Positions 6,710 to 37,665 of a DNA stretch of 64,000 nucleotides are shown piece after piece; positions within the stretch are counted from its first letter, which is position 1; every line of letters begins with the position of its first letter. The DNA lies in contig VBBR01000032.1 in assembly GCA_005881615.1 (NCBI GenBank), positions 3,183 through 67,182 on the forward strand, read 5' to 3'. The position numbers and the translations under genes were made by a program. This DNA is from Candidatus Bathyarchaeota archaeon (GTDB lineage Archaea > Thermoproteota > Bathyarchaeia > 40CM-2-53-6). Below the pieces are notes generated by a model that was given only the letters and a program-made list of their open reading frames with translations, searched no databases and was not told the origin of the DNA.

Positions 6710-7170
6710 GGATAGTTACCGATGTGCCACTGCCATTTCTTGCCGTCCAGTCGGACAAAGTCTTCGAAAGCAGACGGTCCCTTTCGCTGGTACTCACACC
6801 AAGACGCGATTTTTCCGTCACGAACTTTGACGATGACAACACCATGGTCAGCAGAGGATTTGCCTTTCAAGCCAAATGAGAACTCGCCAGCACCAACTTG
6901 GTTTGACTCGTCAAACGAAAGATGGTGAAAGACCATGAAGGTCCCAGGCGTAAGGGCCCCAAAGTAAGAACGCAGCTGTTCTTGTCCATGATAAAACTGA
7001 ACATCCGGTGGCTCAAAGTAAACCGCGTCGCTTGTGAAACACTCCAGCGCAGATTCGGTATCCTGTCGACTCCAGGCCTGAGCAAGCTTTGTCATCAAGG
7101 CATGGTATTCCTGAGGACCCAACACTAACATGCCGACACCCCGAATCGCGTCAGGTCTCAGTAAATACAT
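6706..7170 (-). CDS. SnoaL-like / NTF2-fold protein
   Basis: 154 aa; ...LAQAWSRQDTESALECFTSDAVYFEPP...DGKIASWCEY matches the SnoaL-like (NTF2-like) pattern. Confidence 0.5.
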   Translation of the reverse strand: MYLLRPDAIRGVGMLVLGPQEYHALMTKLAQAWSRQDTESALECFTSDAVYFEPPDVQFYHGQEQLRSYFGALTPGTFMVFHHLSFDESNQVGAGEFSFGLKGKSSADHGVVIVKVRDGKIASWCEYQRKGPSAFEDFVRLDGKKWQWHIGNYP

Positions 7171-7502
7171 TTGTCTCCAAGCAACACTCTGAGTCGCTTC
7201 TCGAAACCACTCGTAACACCGCGGTGGTGAGAGGGGAGGGGGTCCGAGTATCCAAACATGTGTCGAGCCATGGGTTGAGCGAGTAACACGCTGTCGTCTG
7301 GTCGAATTGATGGTGGGTGACGTCCCAAGAAAAAAAGCCGCAGCTGCGAATCAGCCTTTGATGGGCAAAACCACTACAAGGGTGCCTGAAAATCAAGATT
7401 CAAAAGTCATGAGACACCGCCAGAGAGACATCGCGCAAAATCCGTGTCGCTCAATGAGGCTAGTCTATTAGACGATTCCAAACCAGGCTCGGCAGATTAC
7501 TA

Positions 7503-8342
7503 TTGGAGTCCGGATTGCTTCAAGTCGACGACGGCAGGCTATACTACGAGGTCAACGGTCGCGGCGACCCGATCGTCCTCATACACGCAGGCTTCCTAGA
7601 CAACAGAATGTGGGACGAACAATTCCAATTATTCGCCCAGCACTACAAGGTCATCCGTTACGATGTAAGAGGCTACGGCAAGTCCGACGAGCCAAAAACC
7701 AGTTTCTCCGACTATAAGGACCTCCACAGGCTACTCGCCCATCTAAGCGTCAAAACCGTCCACATAGTCGGCGTCTCAAACGGTGGAAGAATCGCCCTTG
7801 ACTTCGCCGTGGAATACCCTGAGATGATTCACTCTCTGATTCTGGTCGGAACGGGGGTTAGAGGCCGCGGGGTCTCGGGGCCAGAAGAGGAAAAGTTCTG
7901 GGGCGAGTTCGAGACGCAGATGAAACTCCAAGAAGAGGCTGTCAAAGGAGACAGGCTGGCCGAGGCTACAGAAATAGATGTGGACACTTGGGCCACTGCT
8001 CAGACACCCGCTTCACAAAAGCGCATTCTCGAAATAGCCCTTGAAAACTCCCACGTTCAAAAAGACGAACCTGGAAAATTCCAAGTGTCACCCGAGCCAG
8101 CTGCTTACAAGAGGCTATCCGAAATACGCGCCCCGACTCTGGTGATAATTGGAGACCGAGACGTTCGAGGGATGCGGTATATCGCCGATGACGTTCACTC
8201 GAAAATCCAAGGCTCCAAGAAACTGGTGGTTCAGGGAGCAGACCATATAGTCAACATGTCCAAGCCAAAGGAATTCAACAAGATGGTTTTAGAATTCTTG
8301 GAAAGCAGTGCAGATCCTCCGCAAGATGTGGTCAGAGGATAA
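7503..8342 (+). CDS. alpha/beta-fold hydrolase
   Basis: 279 aa; YYEVNGRGDPIVLIHAGFLDNRMW (oxyanion-hole HGG-like region) and GVSNGG nucleophile-elbow (G-x-S-x-G) variant. Confidence 0.7.
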   Translation: MESGLLQVDDGRLYYEVNGRGDPIVLIHAGFLDNRMWDEQFQLFAQHYKVIRYDVRGYGKSDEPKTSFSDYKDLHRLLAHLSVKTVHIVGVSNGGRIALDFAVEYPEMIHSLILVGTGVRGRGVSGPEEEKFWGEFETQMKLQEEAVKGDRLAEATEIDVDTWATAQTPASQKRILEIALENSHVQKDEPGKFQVSPEPAAYKRLSEIRAPTLVIIGDRDVRGMRYIADDVHSKIQGSKKLVVQGADHIVNMSKPKEFNKMVLEFLESSADPPQDVVRG

Positions 8343-10158: not shown

Positions 10159-10274
10159 TGGTGGGCCCGCCCGGATTCGAACCGGGGACCGTCAGGTTTC
10201 CCGAACTTGGGGCTATGAGCCTGCCGCTCTTTCAGTTCTTCAACCTGAAGAAAACCTAGCTGAGCTACGGGCCC
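10159..10274 (-). tRNA. tRNA(CAU) (elongator Met or Ile2) with two introns (D-loop and canonical 37/38)
   Basis: Reverse complement: GGGCCCG-TA-GCTC-AGCTAGGT[TTTCTTCAGGTTGAAGAACTGAA]A-GAGC-G-GCAGG-CTCATA[GCCCCAAGTTCGGGAA]A-CCTGA-CGGTC-CCCGG-TTCGAAT-CCGGG-CGGGCCC-A-CCA. The 7-bp acceptor, T-arm, CAU anticodon and encoded CCA are all in place; both bracketed inserts can form hairpins (BHB-like). Confidence 0.7.
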
Positions 10275-30449: not shown

Positions 30450-30779
30450 TTGTTCGAGGCGAATCTGACAACGCAATTTCAGTTTGACGAAAAGGTGGAC
30501 TTGGCGATAGGCAAGTCTGTGAAGGCCACGCTCAGGTTCTACAACGAGCTCAGAAAGCAAGCGGTTGCTCGAGGCGAGGTGGTGAAGCCTCCCAGCTACG
30601 AGACGTTCTCGACAATGGCGAGAGGCCTCATGGATGCAAACAAACAGGTTGATCTCGACCGACTGAAGAACGCGAGCATGCGAGACCTCTTCGAGCGAAC
30701 ATGGTCACAGAAGCTTCTCAACTATTCGACGCAGAAACTTCAGAGAGAGGCCTACGAGACTCTCATGAGGAGATACTAG
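30450..30779 (+). CDS. hypothetical protein
   Basis: 109-aa ORF, helical, no motif recognised. Confidence 0.35.
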   Translation: MFEANLTTQFQFDEKVDLAIGKSVKATLRFYNELRKQAVARGEVVKPPSYETFSTMARGLMDANKQVDLDRLKNASMRDLFERTWSQKLLNYSTQKLQREAYETLMRRY

Positions 30780-31056: not shown

Positions 31057-31200
31057 ATGCCACAAGCATACTGCGTCAAATGCAAAGCAAATATCGAGAT
31101 CAAGAACCCAACGAACGTCACGCTCAAGAACGGAAAGGCTGCGGTCAAAGGCGTATGCCCCAACTGCGGAACCTCCGTCTTCCGAATCGGAAAGGGTTAG
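31057..31200 (+). CDS. small (47 aa) zinc-ribbon protein
   Basis: MPQAYCVKCKANIEIKNPTNVTLKNGKAAVKGVCPNCGTSVFRIGKG: CxxC-x25-CxxC. Below the 60-aa cutoff of the ORF track; overlaps a less plausible 95-aa ORF in another frame. Confidence 0.45.
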   Translation: MPQAYCVKCKANIEIKNPTNVTLKNGKAAVKGVCPNCGTSVFRIGKG

Positions 31201-31275
31201 CGGCTCATCTTAAGCCTCGCGCTCCCCTCCAATATTTTTCCACGCTGAAACACTCCTCTCGTAGAACCTTTTAAC

Positions 31276-33069
31276 TTGAAGAGAGGTCTCTCTCATGAGA
31301 GAACGGTGAGTACGCTCCGCGTCGCATTAGTAATCGTCCTTATGCTGATTGCAACGATAAGTCTCTCTCACACACAAGGAGCGATGGGAACTAGCCCGGC
31401 CACTCAGATAAATCGACTCTTCTACCTCTCTTCCTCAGGGGCACTTAGTTCGGCACCCCCATCGGGAAGCGCGCTCCCTTCCATGTCCAACATAACCAGC
31501 TCGCCAAGCAGTTTTTCCATTCAAACACCTCTTCTCTCATCGGCTTCGATTATCGGGCAACCTACATTCTCTATGTGGACCGATTGGACTGGAAACAAGT
31601 CCGCCCCCCCGCCCCTCTTGATAGGAGTATTCAGTTATCGGCTCCCTGGACAGATTTGGTCTAACACGACATCGACGGCGCAAACGATTTCCTCAGGACT
31701 CGGACCTCAACATCTTAACCTCACCTTGCCAACGCTTAACGCCAATTTGCTAGAAGGCACGTCCTTAGCCATTCAAGTTGTTGCGACCTTAGTTCCTCGC
31801 CACTCAAACATTACTTTAGATTGGGGGTCCGGTTCCGCTCCTTCCTTTGTCGTGCTGCCGCTCTCGGGTTATACGTCGCTATTTCAGATTAGCATTCTCA
31901 ATCACGATGAAGTCCCGACTACCTACTTCAACGTAAATGCAACTCCTGGAAACAACATCGTTCTTGTTAAGGTACTCGTCAACTCGGCCTTTGGATGTTC
32001 AGACGTATCCAAAGTCAACATGACCATTGTGGATCCTCTTTCCCGTCCCGCAGTCGGCGCATCCAACAGGGCCATGCAACAAACCCCTCCATGCCCGGCG
32101 GGACAGAGTCCCTTCGAATTCATCGCCGCTTGGACCTATCTTCCGGGCGCTGCACAGGCAACTTATCAAGTGTGGGTGGATATTATCGACATACAAGGTA
32201 ACACCGCATACAGTTATCGTGGCCCGGCTAGCTTCGGGCTCGTTCCCCCTGGTTTTATCCCACCACCTTACGATCTGATCCCATATTTCGCTGTCGCTGG
32301 CATAGGAGTTGTAGGAGTCTCAGTTGGAGCATTCTATTATCGAAGGAGAAGGGGCAAGAGCTACCTAGCCCCATTTGCACACTTCAACACCCTAACTTCC
32401 GGCGAATTGAACGGAGGAACCGTATCCATTGAAGGCAACACAGGATCGGGGAAAACCATTCTGTCCGAACAACTCATGTTCGAGGACCTCAAGCGAGGGA
32501 AGCCATGCATCTTCGTCTCCACCGGTGACTTTCCCTCTAACGTAAGATCGGGGATGAAGTCAATGGGTCTTGACGTAAGGGGTTACGAACAGAGCGGGCT
32601 CCTGACGTTTGTGGATGGATACTCGGCTGAGGCGGGGCAGGAATCGACCGAGAAATTTTCAGTCCCATCCATTGGGGACCTGACGACGCTGGGCATGAAG
32701 ATCTCATCATCTCTACCATCGCAGTCCAAGGGGGCGAGCCTCTACTTCGATTCCCTGGTCCCCCTAGCATCCAAGACGAAGCCGGAGAGTATCGTCTCGT
32801 TTGTCCAGTCGATTGGTGCGAAAATGAGAGGGATCGGAGGAAAGGCGGTTTTCACTCTGGGCCCCAGCGTCGATCCGATGGTGCAGAAACAACTAGAGGA
32901 CATGTCGGACTGTGTTGTCCAAATGGAAGCATTCGAAGAGCGCGGAGTTCGTCGTAGACGACTAAAGATTGCAAAGCTTAGAGCGAGGAGGCATCAGGAA
33001 GGTTGGAACGTCTTCGCCATAGAAGATGGAAAGGGAATAATCTTCTATTCGAAGAGGCCTAAGACCTAG
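31276..33069 (+). CDS. membrane protein: N-terminal anchor, ~280-aa extracellular domain, TM helix, cytoplasmic KaiC/RecA-like ATPase domain
   Basis: N-terminal hydrophobic helix (VALVIVLMLIATISL), a Ser/Thr-rich extracellular region, a second TM (IPYFAVAGIGVVGVSVGAFYYRRRRGK), then ...GGTVSIEGNTGSGKTILSEQLMFEDLKRGKPCIFVSTGDFP... (Walker A, KaiC/RecA-like). Confidence 0.7.
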   Translation: MKRGLSHERTVSTLRVALVIVLMLIATISLSHTQGAMGTSPATQINRLFYLSSSGALSSAPPSGSALPSMSNITSSPSSFSIQTPLLSSASIIGQPTFSMWTDWTGNKSAPPPLLIGVFSYRLPGQIWSNTTSTAQTISSGLGPQHLNLTLPTLNANLLEGTSLAIQVVATLVPRHSNITLDWGSGSAPSFVVLPLSGYTSLFQISILNHDEVPTTYFNVNATPGNNIVLVKVLVNSAFGCSDVSKVNMTIVDPLSRPAVGASNRAMQQTPPCPAGQSPFEFIAAWTYLPGAAQATYQVWVDIIDIQGNTAYSYRGPASFGLVPPGFIPPPYDLIPYFAVAGIGVVGVSVGAFYYRRRRGKSYLAPFAHFNTLTSGELNGGTVSIEGNTGSGKTILSEQLMFEDLKRGKPCIFVSTGDFPSNVRSGMKSMGLDVRGYEQSGLLTFVDGYSAEAGQESTEKFSVPSIGDLTTLGMKISSSLPSQSKGASLYFDSLVPLASKTKPESIVSFVQSIGAKMRGIGGKAVFTLGPSVDPMVQKQLEDMSDCVVQMEAFEERGVRRRRLKIAKLRARRHQEGWNVFAIEDGKGIIFYSKRPKT

Positions 33070-33815
33070 AATACCTTGTCGCGCGGGAAAACCTCTATTC
33101 CGGCGGTCCCAAATTGATATGGACGAATCTGCGTGTCATGAGCAATTCCACGCATTTTTTCGACTTGTACCGCTCGGACGAAGTTTCCTTGATGCATGAG
33201 TGTGTGAAGTACAACTACTCCGTGTGAAAGAAACTCCTCAAGTTGAAATCTTCGGTCCAAAAGCGATGTCTTCAACTCGCTCGTCACCAGAGAAGTGCAA
33301 CCCGTATCGGCCAGTGCATCGAAGAATTCCACGGTTGCTCTCCGTCTTTTCACCTCATCCCCGTACCTCAACATAATAGATGTGATAGGGTCGAGAGCGA
33401 TCCGCTCTACGTTCTCGCCCTCAACTAGTTTTGTAAGAGTTTTCAAGACCTCGGTGAAGCCGACCCCTTCAGAGGAGTCGGAAGAAAATAGCGCGTGAGG
33501 TCCATTGTTCTTGGTCTTAGTTCTCCGGAGACCGCTGGCGTCTAAGAACAGGAGTCGGCCTTTCTTCTCGACGCTATCCAGGTCCCAGTTGTAAGATTGA
33601 AAGTTCTGTTTGATCATGTCAGGATATTCGTCCAGAGTAACGTAGAGTCCTGTTTCGCCTTGAAGCGCCCCGCTGTAGAGATACTGAATCGCAAAAGTCG
33701 TCTTTCCGGAGCCAGGGCTCCCAACTACCAGAATGCATTTTCCCAAAGGGAAGCCTCCCCCGAGAAGCTCGTCGAGGCCTTTGATCCCTGTGGGAACTCT
33801 GTCCAACGCGATCAT
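33066..33815 (-). CDS. single-domain KaiC/RadA-like ATPase
   Basis: IPTGIKGLDELLGGGFPLGKCILVVGSPGSGKTTFAIQYLYSGALQGETGLYVTLDEYPD (KaiC-type Walker A region). Convergent with the previous gene and overlapping it by 4 nt. Confidence 0.8.
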   Translation of the reverse strand: MIALDRVPTGIKGLDELLGGGFPLGKCILVVGSPGSGKTTFAIQYLYSGALQGETGLYVTLDEYPDMIKQNFQSYNWDLDSVEKKGRLLFLDASGLRRTKTKNNGPHALFSSDSSEGVGFTEVLKTLTKLVEGENVERIALDPITSIMLRYGDEVKRRRATVEFFDALADTGCTSLVTSELKTSLLDRRFQLEEFLSHGVVVLHTLMHQGNFVRAVQVEKMRGIAHDTQIRPYQFGTAGIEVFPRDKVF

Positions 33816-34827: not shown

Positions 34828-35604
34828 TTGCCTGAAGAAATGGATCTGATTCTAAAGATCGTTAGGACGTATCGTCCGACCGGCCGTGTGTCGATCCGAC
34901 GGATCGGGAGTTTCGTCAATGATGTATTCCTGGTTAAGGTGGACAACGAGAAACTGGTGGCCAAAAGGTACACGAACTGGGTGTCTCTCAAGTGGGTGAC
35001 GTTGAGTCTCTTTGGCCTGGGTTCGGTTCACTTCTCGATATCCGGGAAGAGACGGATGGAGGCTGAGTATGCCTTCAACGACCTTTTGTCACGTCGGGGG
35101 ATACCAGTGCCCTCGATTCTTGGGGCTGACCAGAAATCTAGGACGATACTGTTCTCCTTCGTTTCCGGCGACCAATTATCCAGTCTTCTTCCCAAGTTGG
35201 CCGGGGTTGCTCAAATAGGACAAAGGGAGCGAGAAGCAGCGTACCAGGCTGGAAAACTGATGGCGGGTGCACATCAGCTCGAAGCTTCGCTAGGCGATAC
35301 GAAGCCAGAGAACTTTCTCGTTGAAAAGAAAGGCGAGGTAACCCTCGTCGACCTTGAGCAAGCTCGCCACAGAGGGGATTATGCTTGGGATTTGGCGGAG
35401 TTCCTATTCTATTCAGGTCATTACTGGTTCTCGTTCAACAAAACTCTCGAGGGATACGTTGATTCCTTCATCAAGGGCTACAAGGAGCAAGGAAGTGCGA
35501 GCACGATAAGAGCTGCCGCCTCTCCACGATACGTTAGAGTCTTCTCCGTATGGACTCCCCCGAATATCCTGCATAACATGAGAAAGAAACTAACGGAGAT
35601 CTAA
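34828..35604 (+). CDS. protein-kinase-like fold protein (Bud32/RIO/Kdo-kinase-like)
   Basis: GDTKPENFLVEKKGEVTLVDLEQAR resembles a catalytic-loop (D-x-K-x-x-N) and DFG-equivalent (DLE) arrangement of small atypical kinases. Confidence 0.45.
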   Translation: MPEEMDLILKIVRTYRPTGRVSIRRIGSFVNDVFLVKVDNEKLVAKRYTNWVSLKWVTLSLFGLGSVHFSISGKRRMEAEYAFNDLLSRRGIPVPSILGADQKSRTILFSFVSGDQLSSLLPKLAGVAQIGQREREAAYQAGKLMAGAHQLEASLGDTKPENFLVEKKGEVTLVDLEQARHRGDYAWDLAEFLFYSGHYWFSFNKTLEGYVDSFIKGYKEQGSASTIRAAASPRYVRVFSVWTPPNILHNMRKKLTEI

Positions 35605-35979: not shown

Positions 35980-37665
35980 CTAGAACTCTTCGTCGCCGCC
36001 GGGCGGTTTGAAGTCTTTTCCGCCACCGGCACCCTTGTCGACTCCTTTGGACGCGATGACATCGTCTATTCTCAGAATCATCGATGCAGCTTCGGAGGCG
36101 GATTTGATCACCTGCTGCTTGACTCTCAAGGGTTCGAGAACGTTCAGTTTTCGCATATCCTTCACATCACCCGTGAAGACGTCGATTCCGAACCATGGGC
36201 TCCCCGCTCGCTCGTGCTTTGAGCGCAGTTCGACCAAGACATCAATCGGGTCGAAGCCAGCGTTTTCTGCAAGCGTAGTTGGCACGGCTTCGAGTGATTC
36301 CGCGAATGCTTCGATTGCGAGCTGTTCTCTTCCGCCTACTTTTACCGCGTATTCTCGGAGGCGCTTGGCCAACTCTGCCTCAGGCGCTCCTCCCCCAGCA
36401 ACAATCTTGCCGTCTTCTAGAGCGTTTCTCACAACGCATAGCGCGTCGTGAAGTGATCTGTCCGCTTCATCGACTACATGTTCCGTTCCTCCACGAATTA
36501 CAATCGTGACTGCTTTCGGGTTCTTGGAATCGCGAATGTAGAGAAGTTTGTCATCGCCAATCTTGACTTCCTCGATAAGTTTCGCTTCTCCTAATGCGTC
36601 TTTCGCTAGATCTTTGACGCTGGCAACTATTCGTGCGCCTGTAGCCTTGGAAATTTTCTCCATATCGCCGCTGCTGACGTTCTTGACTGCGCCTATTCCT
36701 TTCTTTGCTAGATAGTGTAGTGCAACATCGTCTATTCCTTTCTCGCTAAAGACAATATTCGCGCCGGTTTTTTCGATCTGCGAAACCATGTCAACCAGCA
36801 TTTTCTCTTCTTCTTCAATGAAGAGGTGCATCTGGTCAGGATTGTTGATGTTGATCTTTGCATCGAACTCCGTCTTCTCCACTTCGATCTTGGCGTTGAG
36901 TAGAGCGATTCGCGCGCCTGTTATCGTCTTCGGCATTTGAGCATGGGCGAGTTCTTTGTCGATGACAATTCCCTTGACGAGTTCCGTTTCTTCGAGGCTC
37001 TTGCCATGTTTCTTGAGAATCTTGATCTGATCGATATCAGCCTTGATCTTACCATCGGTTTTCTCAGCAATATGCTTTACAGCTTTGACGGCGATATCCG
37101 AGAAGTGTTCTTTCGCAACCGCAATGCCCTTGCTGTACATCGATGTGGTTGCGACTTGTCGAAGGATCACATCGTCCTTCTCTGAGATAGGGATCGATAA
37201 CTTCTCAAGGATCTCGATCGCTTTCTCTGCCGCCTTCTTGTAACCATCAACAATCACTGTTGGATGGACATCCTTGTCCAACAACTTCTCCGCCTTCTCC
37301 AGAAGTTCGCCAGACAATAGGACGGCAGTCGTAGTTCCGTCGCCAACCTCGTTATCTTGGGTTTTGGATACTTCAACAAGCATTTTCGCGGCTGGATGCT
37401 GCACGTCAAGCTCCTTCATTATCGTCGCCCCATCGTTCGTGATCGTCACGTCGCCGATACTGCTTACCAGCATCTTGTCCATTCCTCGGGGTCCGAGGGT
37501 GGAGCGCACGGTTTCCGCTACAACCTTTGCAGCCGTGATGTTATTCCTCTGAGCTTCCTTACCAGTTGATCGTCCTGTTCCTTCCTTTAGGATATAGACA
37601 GGTACTCCTTGGGATCCTTGTGCAGACATTCTTTCAAGCCTTCTCGAATTGGAATTCGAAAGCAA
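35980..37665 (-). CDS. thermosome subunit (group II chaperonin)
   Basis: 561 aa with the full CCT/thermosome pattern (…GPRGMDKML…, …TITNDGATIL…, …VGDGTTT…, C-terminal GGxxGGxxM-like tail). Confidence 0.95.
   Translation of the reverse strand: MLSNSNSRRLERMSAQGSQGVPVYILKEGTGRSTGKEAQRNNITAAKVVAETVRSTLGPRGMDKMLVSSIGDVTITNDGATIMKELDVQHPAAKMLVEVSKTQDNEVGDGTTTAVLLSGELLEKAEKLLDKDVHPTVIVDGYKKAAEKAIEILEKLSIPISEKDDVILRQVATTSMYSKGIAVAKEHFSDIAVKAVKHIAEKTDGKIKADIDQIKILKKHGKSLEETELVKGIVIDKELAHAQMPKTITGARIALLNAKIEVEKTEFDAKININNPDQMHLFIEEEEKMLVDMVSQIEKTGANIVFSEKGIDDVALHYLAKKGIGAVKNVSSGDMEKISKATGARIVASVKDLAKDALGEAKLIEEVKIGDDKLLYIRDSKNPKAVTIVIRGGTEHVVDEADRSLHDALCVVRNALEDGKIVAGGGAPEAELAKRLREYAVKVGGREQLAIEAFAESLEAVPTTLAENAGFDPIDVLVELRSKHERAGSPWFGIDVFTGDVKDMRKLNVLEPLRVKQQVIKSASEAASMILRIDDVIASKGVDKGAGGGKDFKPPGGDEEF

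What the first reader, a model, noticed from the sequence alone, without database searches (positions are those of the whole stretch)
31276..33815. Convergent, overlapping pair of KaiC/RecA-like ATPases, one fused to a transmembrane/extracellular module
The first protein (597 aa) has an N-terminal anchor, a ~280-aa Ser/Thr-rich extracellular domain, a second TM helix and then a cytoplasmic KaiC-like ATPase domain (GNTGSGKT). The second (249 aa) is a stand-alone KaiC-like domain (GSPGSGKTT) on the opposite strand; the stops overlap by 4 nt. This resembles a transmembrane signalling or secretion-associated ATPase with a soluble partner, an architecture not covered by the characterised archaeal KaiC homologues I know (FlaH, ArlH).
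Basis: partly seen in the sequence, partly recalled or inferred. Interest (0 to 1): 0.55.

Follow-up and report, generated by a model that had tools for sequence, protein, structure and literature searches.

The report
Receptor-like KaiC ATPase with soluble partner
An uncultured soil archaeon (Bathyarchaeia) makes a glycosylated cell-surface protein whose cytoplasmic tail is a KaiC-type ATPase domain; it is almost always encoded tail-to-tail with a second, soluble KaiC ATPase, and its outer part is swapped between close relatives like a variable surface antigen, so it is probably an undescribed kind of archaeal transmembrane sensing or envelope-control device.

Summary
ORF A (31276..33069 +, 597 aa) and ORF B (33066..33815 -, 249 aa) are real, convergent KaiC-domain genes whose ends overlap by 4 nt.

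- **A** is a type-I membrane protein. It has a signal-peptide-like N-terminus and a confidently folded all-beta ectodomain (jelly-roll plus Ig-like, pLDDT 91, sequon-rich). One TM helix followed by RRRR leads to a divergent KaiC domain. Walker A, Walker B and the Arg finger are kept, but the catalytic Glu-Glu pair is Gly-Asp.
- **B** is a canonical, apparently active single-domain KaiC.
- **Not a chimera:** more than 100 full-length homologues exist, all named ones from Bathyarchaeia.
- **A and B are linked:** B lies directly downstream of A-type fusions in about 27 of 29 informative loci outside the window's syntenic clade. A reciprocal search starting from B finds A.
- **Neighbours:** an ePK/APH-like kinase recurs. 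In other lineages so do GT2, PMT-type GT-C glycosyltransferases and an archaeosortase-like gene.
- **New finding:** the ectodomain is a polymorphic cassette. At least 17 types exist. Proteins with KaiC domains at least 95% identical have a median ectodomain identity of 47%. DNA homology breaks exactly over the ectodomain.

The best reading is a transmembrane surface-sensing or envelope-control module signalling through an A-B KaiC assembly. That mechanism is inferred, not shown. It is not ArlH and not a clock KaiC.

The parts
31276..33069 (+). Gene A: type-I membrane protein with a surface ectodomain, one TM helix and a cytoplasmic KaiC-like domain (597 aa from TTG 31276; 587 aa if the in-frame GTG at 31306 is the start)
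   Evidence: ORF; Pfam KaiC and DUF7504; >100 full-length homologues; start-codon ambiguity
31276..31386 (+). Signal-peptide-like N-terminus (residues 1-37)
   Evidence: Hydropathy 8-37; n/h/c-region pattern with small -3/-1 residues across homologues; predicted helix 13-31
31387..32268 (+). Ectodomain (residues 38-331): jelly-roll plus Ig-like beta-sandwich, sequon-rich. This is the polymorphic cassette.
   Evidence: AF2 pLDDT 90.9; Foldseek hits to the CocE/NonD/PepX C-terminal jelly-roll and phage tail-fibre distal domains; sequons 283 observed vs 132 expected; DNA homology to L009/L010/L013 lost between ~31200-31280 and ~32233-32356; >=17 types
32269..32340 (+). Transmembrane helix (residues 332-355), followed by RRRRGK (positive-inside)
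   Evidence: Hydropathy; AF2 helix 335-355; related surface proteins share a juxtamembrane PPP-I-Y motif, TM and basic anchor
32368..33066 (+). Cytoplasmic divergent KaiC domain (residues 365-597). Walker A G387-T394 (32434-32457), G417-D418 at the catalytic Glu-Glu position (32524-32529), Walker B D492 (32749-32751), K567/R569 finger (32974-32982)
   Evidence: Pfam; residue-level alignment to KaiC-CI and PH0284; column conservation in 33 homologues
33066..33815 (-). Gene B: soluble single-domain KaiC ATPase (249 aa). Walker A G32-T39 (33699-33722), D62-E63 at the catalytic position (33627-33632)
   Evidence: Pfam 2.9e-56; phmmer vs PDB: KaiC 8e-50, PH0186 1e-36, PH0284 8e-34, with motifs aligned; adjacency to A-type genes in distant loci
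34828..35604 (+). ePK/APH-like kinase (258 aa; motifs LVAK, GDTKPEN, VDLE). Probable accessory component.
   Evidence: Pfam APH/Kdo and NCBIfam Bud32-like hits below cut-off; homologues (36-37% id, E 1e-54 to 1e-65) next to A+B in L029, L031, L035 and L041/L045/L049
33863..34738 (-). Mem291: 6-7-TM membrane protein 47 nt upstream of B on the same strand. Clade-specific neighbour, not part of the conserved core.
   Evidence: No Pfam/NCBIfam/PADLOC hit; hydropathy; present throughout the soil clade but absent from distant loci; not related to the archaeosortase
31057..31200 (+). 47-aa CxxC..CxxC zinc-ribbon protein (DUF5679) 75 nt upstream of A. It forms the conserved upstream flank of the variable cassette.
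   Evidence: ORF; DUF5679 in orthologous positions; 85-100% aa identity in all soil-clade loci, absent from distant loci

Best explanation
A and B form a conserved two-gene module of Bathyarchaeia.

A is a glycosylated type-I surface protein. Its lectin/adhesin-like ectodomain is homologous to the N-terminal 'head' of large archaeal surface proteins. A single TM helix holds a KaiC-like domain within about 10 residues of the inner membrane face. That domain keeps the nucleotide-binding and ring-interface residues but has lost the first catalytic Glu, so it is predicted to bind ATP and oligomerise but hydrolyse poorly.

B is a soluble, catalytically complete KaiC-CI-like ATPase.

Proposed mechanism (inferred). 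Engagement or clustering of the ectodomain changes the oligomeric or nucleotide state of the membrane-tethered A ring. The ligand could be a surface glycan, a neighbouring envelope component, a cell or a virus. The A ring docks or releases a B hexamer, either as a mixed ring or as a stacked ring-on-ring, a split and membrane-anchored analogue of KaiC's CI/CII double ring. B's ATPase cycle, together with the co-occurring ePK-like kinase, relays the state into the cell. The most likely target is surface-glycoprotein biogenesis.

The ectodomain exists as many old allelic types that are exchanged by recombination onto a conserved cytoplasmic domain, as expected for an exposed recognition surface.
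For: SHOWN:
- Domain identities.
- Topology indicators. TM followed by RRRR. Sequons number 6-11 in the ectodomain and 0 in the cytoplasmic part in all 33 homologues (283 vs 132 expected and 0 vs 25 expected).
- The ectodomain is folded and binding-type. It is shared with 600-2500-aa surface proteins that have a signal peptide, a C-terminal TM anchor and Ig-like repeats.
- The fusion is conserved. It also occurs with extra or other Ig-like ectodomains: CarboxypepD_reg, PKD, CARDB.
- A-B linkage. B orthologues (56-61% id) are adjacent to A-type genes in different neighbourhoods: L024/25, L028, L029, L030, L031. In a metagenome census they are adjacent in 20 of 21 informative loci. Two B homologues picked blind both had an A-type gene next door. 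Orientation is convergent in nearly all loci, with stops -44 to +31 nt apart.
- A-type family trait. Walker A, Walker B, K567 and R569 are invariant. The first catalytic Glu is replaced by G/S/A and the second is D or E.
- Kinase co-occurrence in four arrangement classes.
- Glycosylation and archaeosortase neighbours in other lineages.
- Ectodomain polymorphism.

INFERRED: the A-B physical interaction, the direction of signalling, the ligand and the output.
Against: - No direct evidence that A and B interact. Convergent genes cannot be co-transcribed.
- A alleles whose KaiC domain differs by 18-20% coexist with a B that is 94-96% identical, so there is no tight A-B co-variation.
- A related 685-aa TM-KaiC subfamily (L059-L070), P0131 (L027) and L048 lack an adjacent B.
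- Neither protein has the KaiC-CII S431/T432 phospho-sites. These positions align to E541-D542 in A and to E-E in B, so a KaiC-like autophosphorylation switch is not supported.
- No DNA-binding or other classical output domain is linked in the window.
- The KaiC part of the full-length model has only moderate confidence (pLDDT 60-80).
- Topology rests on hydropathy, the positive-inside rule and sequon statistics, not on a dedicated predictor.
Confidence: 0.5

Rival explanations
1. Inside-out envelope-biogenesis machine. The A+B KaiC ATPases are not a sensor. They are a membrane-bound energising or scaffolding unit for maturation of surface glycoproteins (glycosylation by GT2/PMT-type GT-C enzymes, C-terminal processing by an archaeosortase). 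The A ectodomain would act as a chaperone or adaptor, or would itself be a displayed product.
For: In other lineages A+B sit inside a cluster: kinase <- 2x PMT_2-type GT-C <- GT2 <- | A -> <- B <- archaeosortase-like. Alternatively they sit next to PTPS-related/GT87 genes and large surface proteins. The A ectodomain is homologous to heads of surface proteins and shares their juxtamembrane anchor motif. ArlH shows that a KaiC-like protein can be part of a surface-structure assembly motor (abstract of 10.1101/2021.03.19.436134).
Against: In the window's own clade none of the glycosyltransferase or archaeosortase genes is adjacent. Only the kinase and a clade-specific membrane protein are. RecA/KaiC-fold proteins are not known to drive glycosylation or sortase reactions (my knowledge). 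An allelically hypervariable ectodomain is unusual for a housekeeping assembly factor.
Confidence: 0.25
2. Polymorphic recognition receptor. The ectodomain's main role is discrimination: homotypic kin or self recognition between cells, or a virus receptor or decoy under frequency-dependent selection. The KaiC pair reports engagement.
For: At least 17 ectodomain types occur on near-identical cytoplasmic domains. Median ectodomain identity is 47% when KaiC identity is >=95%. Types are shared across more divergent genomes and differ between closer ones. Purifying selection acts within a type (dN/dS ~0.1), so each type is functional. The jelly-roll resembles distal receptor-binding domains of phage tail fibres and, weakly, the homophilic MAM-Ig module of RPTPmu.
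Against: Hypervariability of exposed proteins is common and does not by itself imply recognition signalling. There is no match to known defence systems and no toxin or effector genes adjacent. The structural similarities are to generic folds with low TM-scores (0.2-0.45).
Confidence: 0.15
3. No functional coupling. A is simply a surface adhesin or S-layer-associated protein with a degenerate, possibly inert KaiC-derived tail. B is an unrelated housekeeping KaiC-like ATPase that happens to lie next to it.
For: A lacks the first catalytic Glu. The genes are convergent, so they are not an operon. Some TM-KaiC relatives lack an adjacent B.
Against: Adjacency survives complete turnover of the surrounding genes and holds in both search directions. 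The A KaiC domain is under strong purifying selection (dN/dS 0.02-0.05; 84% mean column identity, with Walker A/B and the Arg finger invariant), which argues against an inert relic.
Confidence: 0.07

Closest known systems
ArlH/FlaH (KaiC-like component of the archaellum motor)
   Same: A single KaiC-like domain working at the membrane in a complex with other proteins. Nucleotide binding and oligomerisation matter more than turnover. FlaH (4yds) is among the structural matches of A's cytoplasmic domain.
   Different: NCBIfam ArlH model scores are 40 and 39 bits against a cut-off of 215. No arlI/arlJ or archaellin genes are nearby. A is itself an integral membrane protein with an ectodomain. The partner is a second KaiC, not a secretion-type ATPase.
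Cyanobacterial circadian KaiC
   Same: B aligns end-to-end with the CI half (E 8e-50), with Walker A/B, the catalytic acid pair (D-E) and the Arg finger conserved. The idea of two KaiC rings working together (CI/CII) is the template for the proposed A-B assembly.
   Different: Here each polypeptide has a single domain, so there is no tandem duplication. There are no kaiA/kaiB neighbours. The S431/T432 phospho-sites are absent (E-D and E-E). The TIGR02655 score is 109 bits against a cut-off of 546.
PH0284 / PH0186 (Pyrococcus single-domain KaiC-like hexamers, function unknown)
   Same: These are the closest archaeal solved structures to both A's cytoplasmic domain (2dr3, 1e-18; Foldseek top hit) and B (2zts 1e-36, 2dr3 8e-34).
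   Different: They are soluble stand-alone proteins. They have no membrane or ectodomain fusion and no described obligate KaiC partner.
Archaeal KaiC-like ATPases as 'signal transduction hubs' (Makarova, Galperin & Koonin 2017, mBio; cited in PMC5847659 and PMC6393860; the paper itself is not held, so details are from memory)
   Same: The same superfamily and the same general idea: KaiC-like ATPases, including inactivated 'iKaiC' domains, fused or linked to sensor and output modules.
   Different: I could not verify that this paper describes the architecture found here: signal peptide, surface ectodomain, TM helix and KaiC, with a dedicated soluble KaiC partner and a polymorphic ectodomain. 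No held paper mentions it.
Single-pass receptor enzymes (e.g. bacterial PknB-type receptor kinases; RPTPmu with its MAM-Ig ectodomain)
   Same: The same logic: binding ectodomain, one TM helix, cytoplasmic NTP-dependent or phospho-signalling domain. The MAM-Ig module (2c9a) appears among weak structural matches.
   Different: The cytoplasmic module is a RecA/KaiC-fold P-loop domain, not a kinase or phosphatase. The similarity is architectural only (TM-score ~0.22).
Polymorphic cell-surface recognition receptors (e.g. Myxococcus TraA; from my knowledge)
   Same: A variable beta-sandwich ectodomain exists as discrete allelic types on a conserved remainder.
   Different: There is no evidence here for homotypic binding or cell-cell exchange. 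The domain families and the taxon are different.

Membership tests
KaiC/RecA-like ATPase superfamily (Pfam PF06745) | Domain match above the Pfam gathering score | tested here: met
   A scores 106.7 bits and B 190.9 bits against a cut-off of 26.6
KaiC/RecA-like ATPase superfamily (Pfam PF06745) | Walker A, Walker B Asp and the K-x-R arginine finger | tested here: met
   A has GNTGSGKT, D492 and K567/R569, invariant in 33 homologues. B has GSPGSGKT, the ALDPIT Asp and KMRG.
KaiC/RecA-like ATPase superfamily (Pfam PF06745) | Catalytic Glu-Glu pair after strand beta2 (KaiC-CI E77/E78) | tested here: not met
   A has G417-D418. Across the family the first position is G/S/A/T/I/V and the second is D or E, rarely Q/N/A. 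B has D62-E63, so it is essentially retained.
Circadian clock KaiC (TIGR02655 / PRK09302) | Two tandem KaiC domains and a score above the curated cut-off | tested here: not met
   Each protein has a single domain. B scores 109 bits against 546 and 152 against 408. A scores 37 and 69 bits.
Circadian clock KaiC (TIGR02655 / PRK09302) | CII autophosphorylation sites S431/T432 | tested here: not met
   The aligned positions are E541-D542 in A and E-E in B, which is CI-like
Circadian clock KaiC (TIGR02655 / PRK09302) | kaiA/kaiB genes nearby | tested here: not met
   Neighbours are ADH, a zinc ribbon, a membrane protein, a kinase and a thermosome
ArlH/FlaH (NF052589, PRK06067, PRK08533) | Score above the curated cut-off | tested here: not met
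   A scores 40.3 bits and B 39.0 bits against 215. The FlaH models score 22-33 bits against 194-215.
ArlH/FlaH (NF052589, PRK06067, PRK08533) | Location in an arl/fla operon with ArlI (T2SSE ATPase) and ArlJ | tested here: not met
   No such genes lie within +/-5 kb in the window or in any of about 60 related loci
Curated archaeal KaiC families (TIGR03877 thermo_KaiC_1, TIGR03880 KaiC_arch_3, TIGR03881 KaiC_arch_4) | Score above the curated cut-off | tested here: not met
   The best scores are B at 139 bits against 249 and A at 75.5 bits against 307
RadA/RadB recombinases | Score above the curated cut-off | tested here: not met
   Scores are 17-30 bits against 172-403
Type-I (single-pass, N-out) surface glycoprotein | Signal peptide, extracytoplasmic domain, one TM helix with positive-inside charge | tested here: met
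   Hydropathy and RRRRGK. Signal-peptide pattern across homologues. Sequon excess outside and absence inside. Homology to heads of C-terminally anchored surface proteins. No dedicated predictor (SignalP/DeepTMHMM) was available.
Type-I (single-pass, N-out) surface glycoprotein | Actual glycosylation and surface exposure | not testable with these tools
   This needs glycoproteomics or protease shaving
Known anti-phage defence systems (PADLOC-DB) | Significant match to a defence-system protein model | tested here: not met
   Only weak P-loop-level hits were found (mad8 at 1e-3 and 1e-6; PD-T4-6 at 4e-4 for the kinase)
Archaeosortase substrate (PGF-CTERM-type sorting signal) | Signature motif, TM and basic cluster at the extreme C-terminus | tested here: not met
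   A has PPGF..PPP, a TM helix and RRRR, but these are followed by a 240-aa domain. Related surface proteins often have long cytoplasmic tails. Archaeosortase-like genes are adjacent only in other lineages.

The most novel reading that the evidence does not exclude
The module is an archaeal allorecognition or virus-sensing receptor. Discrete, anciently diverged ectodomain alleles are kept in the population by balancing or frequency-dependent selection. They mediate type-specific binding to like cells or to viruses. Engagement is transduced across the membrane by assembling a split, membrane-anchored KaiC double ring (A+B). This would be a receptor class whose cytoplasmic transducer is a RecA/KaiC-fold ATPase rather than a kinase. 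Its output would be remodelling of the glycoprotein envelope.
Probability: 0.15. Interest if true: 0.85.

Novelty: new variant of a known kind. Interest (0 to 1): 0.62.

Why it matters
Archaea carry many KaiC-like ATPases, and apart from ArlH almost none has a known role. How archaea with few two-component systems sense the outside is an open question.

This module gives that question a concrete, testable object. It is a KaiC domain wired directly to a surface-exposed, glycosylated binding domain, with a dedicated soluble KaiC partner and a recurrent protein kinase.

The clean cassette-type polymorphism of the ectodomain marks it as an exposed recognition surface in Bathyarchaeia, an abundant, barely cultivated soil and sediment lineage. 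It also offers a natural allele series for binding and specificity experiments.

In sister lineages the module is embedded among GT2, PMT-type GT-C and archaeosortase genes. This points to control of archaeal envelope and glycoprotein biogenesis, for which no regulators are known in this group.

Tried and rejected
- **Assembly chimera:** rejected. The fusion is present in more than 100 independent contigs and 19 species-level genomes.
- **ArlH, clock KaiC, RadA/B or curated archaeal KaiC families:** all below curated cut-offs and in the wrong context.
- **Defence system:** no meaningful PADLOC match.
- **Mem291 as a divergent archaeosortase:** no similarity (BLASTP E>=2) and no NCBIfam hit. 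It is also absent from distant loci, so it is not core.
- **DUF5679 zinc ribbon as a core component:** absent from distant loci.
- **Variability from repeats, a DGR-like template or tandem arrays:** only short chance repeats and no tandem repeats. Divergence spans the whole ectodomain rather than specific codons.
- **Variability as decay or relaxed selection:** rejected. dN/dS is about 0.1 within types and the fold is confidently predicted.
- **Paralogue confusion:** rejected. All alleles occupy the same syntenic slot, one per genome.
- **Enzymatic ectodomain:** the matches are to the non-catalytic jelly-roll of CocE/NonD/PepX hydrolases, not to their catalytic domains.
- **Bacterial-type promoter/terminator scan:** no more sites than in shuffles and not applicable to archaea.
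- **Other copies of either module in the 64-kb window:** none.
- **The key KaiC-hub paper (PMC5717392):** could not be read.
Full report
**1. Observation.**
The window is archaeal: a thermosome gene lies at 35980..37665, and every named homologue comes from Bathyarchaeia MAGs, mostly soil. Pfam places a KaiC domain at A residues 375-592 (1.6e-30) and B residues 7-246 (2.9e-56). No other copy of either module occurs in the 64 kb.

**2. Anatomy of A.**

*Topology.*
- Hydropathy gives two hydrophobic segments, residues 8-37 and 332-353. The second is followed by RRRRGK.
- Across homologues the first segment has the form of a Sec signal peptide. It has a short basic n-region, an h-region of 12-15 residues and small residues at -3/-1. 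A conserved ..NRxFYL mature end follows.
- The start may be TTG 31276 or the in-frame GTG 31306, which matches most homologues' 586-aa gene calls.

*Ectodomain fold.*
- Residues 38-331 are predicted with high confidence as an all-beta module. The ectodomain alone gives pLDDT 90.9 and pTM 0.84, and the full-length model agrees.
- The best structural matches are non-catalytic jelly-rolls. They include the C-terminal domain of CocE/NonD/PepX hydrolases (E 5e-7, TMq 0.40) and distal domains of phage tail-fibre-type proteins (TMq ~0.42, rmsd 2.5-4 A).
- Weaker matches are MAM-Ig of RPTPmu, RbmA, GbpA and glycosidase sugar-binding domains.
- I read this as a binding-type module, not an enzyme.

*Sequons.*
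- N-x-S/T sequons number 6-11 in the ectodomain and 0 in the cytoplasmic part in all 33 aligned homologues. The totals are 283 against 132 expected from shuffles, and 0 against 25.
- Several sequon positions are conserved. N248-x-T250 is present in 33 of 33.

*Relatives of the ectodomain.*
- A profile of the ectodomain searched against 1.84 billion representative proteins found 150 relatives. Twenty carry the TM + KaiC tail (564-849 aa, some with an extra CarboxypepD_reg-type Ig domain).
- Most of the rest are surface proteins of 600-2500 aa. They have a signal-like N-terminus, Ig-like repeats and a C-terminal anchor of the form (D/N)YPPPIY-TM-basic, often with long cytoplasmic tails.
- A is therefore a surface-protein 'head' whose cytoplasmic tail has become a KaiC domain.
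- A-type KaiC domains also occur behind PKD/CARDB ectodomains. A more distant 685-aa family has a different Ig-like ectodomain.

**3. The two ATPase domains.**
- **B is a canonical KaiC-CI-like domain.** phmmer against the PDB gives KaiC 8e-50, PH0186 1e-36 and PH0284 8e-34. Walker A (GSPGSGKT), D62-E63 at the E77/E78 position, the Walker B Asp and the KMRG finger all align.
- **A's domain is divergent.** It is only 26% identical to B, over 69 residues, but it aligns end-to-end with KaiC-CI and PH0284 (about 1e-18 to 1e-19). It keeps Walker A, D492 and K567/R569, which are invariant in 33 homologues. The Glu-Glu pair is G417-D418. Family-wide, the first position is non-acidic and the second is D or E.
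- **No phospho-switch.** The KaiC-CII S431/T432 positions align to acidic residues in both proteins, so a clock-like autophosphorylation switch is not supported.
- **Selection.** A's KaiC domain is under strong purifying selection (dN/dS 0.02-0.05). It starts within about 10 residues of the membrane.
- **No curated family fits.** None of the curated NCBIfam families (ArlH, FlaH, clock KaiC, KaiC_arch_3/4, thermo_KaiC, RadA/B) is reached by either protein.

**4. Is the pair a unit?**
- **Within the window's clade.** Gene order is fixed in 19 species-level genomes plus metagenome contigs: ADH, a 109-aa ORF (window 30450..30779), DUF5679, A -> <- B, Mem291, then the kinase and the thermosome. That could be mere synteny.
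- **Distant fusions found through the ectodomain.** These are decisive. B orthologues (56-61% identical) lie directly downstream in quite different contexts.
  - L024/25 and L030: archaeosortase-like gene, PadR.
  - L028: co-directional, then PTPS-related and GT87 genes.
  - L029: ABC transporter.
  - L031: GT2 and polytopic membrane proteins.
  - L026: a B fragment at the contig edge.
  - L027 lacks B.
- **Metagenome census.** A scan with the cytoplasmic domain gave 33 more loci. Of 21 informative loci with a bona fide A-type domain, 20 have a convergent B next to it.
- **Reciprocal test.** Two B homologues at 57-58% identity, chosen only for contig length, both had an A-type fusion adjacent.
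- **Geometry.** The stops are -44 to +31 nt apart, and 30 of the 31 loci examined by that point were convergent. The transcripts must therefore overlap.
- **Exceptions.** L048, L027 and the distant 685-aa subfamily lack an adjacent B.

**5. Wider context.**
- **Kinase.** The kinase at 34828..35604 has ePK-type motifs (LVAK, GDTKPEN, VDLE). Homologues (36-37% id, E 1e-54 to 1e-65), usually as a ~540-aa form, accompany A+B in L029, L031, L035 and L041/45/49.
- **Recurrent cluster.** In several lineages the order is kinase <- two PMT_2-type GT-C proteins <- GT2 <- | A -> <- B <- thaumarchaeosortase-like gene. Large surface proteins sometimes lie nearby.
- **Not core.** Mem291 and the DUF5679 zinc ribbon are specific to the window's clade. 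Mem291 is not an archaeosortase relative.
- **Not defence.** No defence-system signature was found.

**6. The new finding: a polymorphic ectodomain cassette.**
- **Protein level.** In loci whose flanking proteins are 90-97% identical to the window's, A is only 51-65% identical.
  - In L009 and L018 the KaiC domain is 96-97% identical but the ectodomain is 44-45% identical.
  - In L010, L012, L013 and L015 the figures are 80-82% and 33-36%.
- **DNA level.** The 86-87% identical alignment to L009, L013 and L010 stops at 31200-31280 and resumes at 32233-32356. The more distant genome L005 (81%) aligns straight through. Allele type is therefore incongruent with genome relatedness.
- **Family-wide.** Among 80 full-length proteins there are at least 17 ectodomain clusters at 55% identity. 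For 61 pairs with at least 95% identical KaiC domains, the median ectodomain identity is 47% (minimum 36%). The window's own KaiC cluster (at least 90% identical) carries four ectodomain types.
- **Selection.** Within a type dN/dS is about 0.1. Between types the substitutions are saturated.
- **Mechanism of variation.** No repeats or tandem arrays explain this.
- **Interpretation.** These are old, functional alleles moved by homologous recombination between conserved arms, the zinc-ribbon gene upstream and the TM/KaiC region downstream. This pattern is typical of exposed recognition surfaces.

**7. Interpretation.**
- **Shown:** the architecture, the A-B genomic coupling, the conservation pattern of catalytic residues, the polymorphism, and the recurrent kinase and envelope-gene context.
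- **Inferred:** A and B form a hetero-oligomeric or stacked KaiC assembly at the membrane that couples ectodomain engagement to B's ATPase cycle and, with the kinase, to envelope and glycoprotein biogenesis.
- **Rivals:**
  - an inside-out role in surface-glycoprotein maturation;
  - a dedicated allorecognition or virus-receptor function;
  - no coupling at all, which is unlikely given section 4.

**8. Novelty.**
- KaiC-like ATPases as archaeal signalling components are an established proposal (Makarova et al. 2017, cited in PMC5847659 and PMC6393860; the paper itself is not held).
- ArlH is the characterised membrane-associated example (10.1101/2021.03.19.436134).
- I found no description of a signal-peptide, ectodomain, TM and KaiC receptor with a dedicated soluble KaiC partner and a cassette-polymorphic ectodomain.
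- I rate it a new variant of a known kind. The interest is moderately high for specialists in archaeal signalling and cell surfaces.

Noticed in passing
window 10162..10274 (-): Rfam tRNA match (44.9 bits) spanning 113 nt, while ARAGORN reports no tRNA in the window. This is probably an intron-containing archaeal tRNA.
   Followed up: no
window 31057..31200 (+): A 47-aa CxxC..CxxC zinc-ribbon protein (DUF5679) lies 75 nt upstream of A. It is 85-100% identical across all soil-clade loci even where the adjacent ectodomain is only about 35% identical. It is absent from distant loci.
   Followed up: partly
window 34828..35604 (+); L029 5875-7500, L031 980-2602, L035 30-1649: The ePK-like kinase (DxKPxN catalytic loop) is a 258-aa stand-alone domain in the window's clade. 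Elsewhere it is a ~540-aa protein with a ~280-aa N-terminal extension that has a faint Polbeta nucleotidyltransferase match.
   Followed up: partly
L041 114-10739 (also L043-L046, L049, L031, L035): A conserved cluster: kinase, two PMT_2-type GT-C membrane proteins, GT2, A-type TM-KaiC, B-type KaiC and a thaumarchaeosortase-like gene. It looks like a surface-glycoprotein maturation locus.
   Followed up: partly
L059-L070 (e.g. L061 3616..5667): A separate ~685-aa soil family. It has a signal peptide, an Ig-like ectodomain of about 370 aa, a TM helix and a KaiC domain with 'SYDAFP' at the catalytic position, plus a low-complexity C-terminal tail. There is no adjacent B-type KaiC.
   Followed up: partly
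window 33066..33069 and orthologous sites: The stop codons of A and B overlap in a palindromic CTAG or TTAG-type tetranucleotide in 12 loci. Elsewhere they are 1-31 nt apart, or overlap by 44 nt in L031. There is no room for terminators, so convergent transcripts must overlap and antisense interplay is possible.
   Followed up: no
L030 2307..3437 (-), 7047..7716 (+): An IS605-type TnpB/OrfB and a MazE/PIN toxin-antitoxin pair flank the distant A+B pair in this locus.
   Followed up: no
L012 vs L015 (gene A): Within one ectodomain type, the KaiC-domain dS is 0.05 but the ectodomain dS is 0.32. This suggests further recombination inside the gene, even between alleles of the same type.
   Followed up: no
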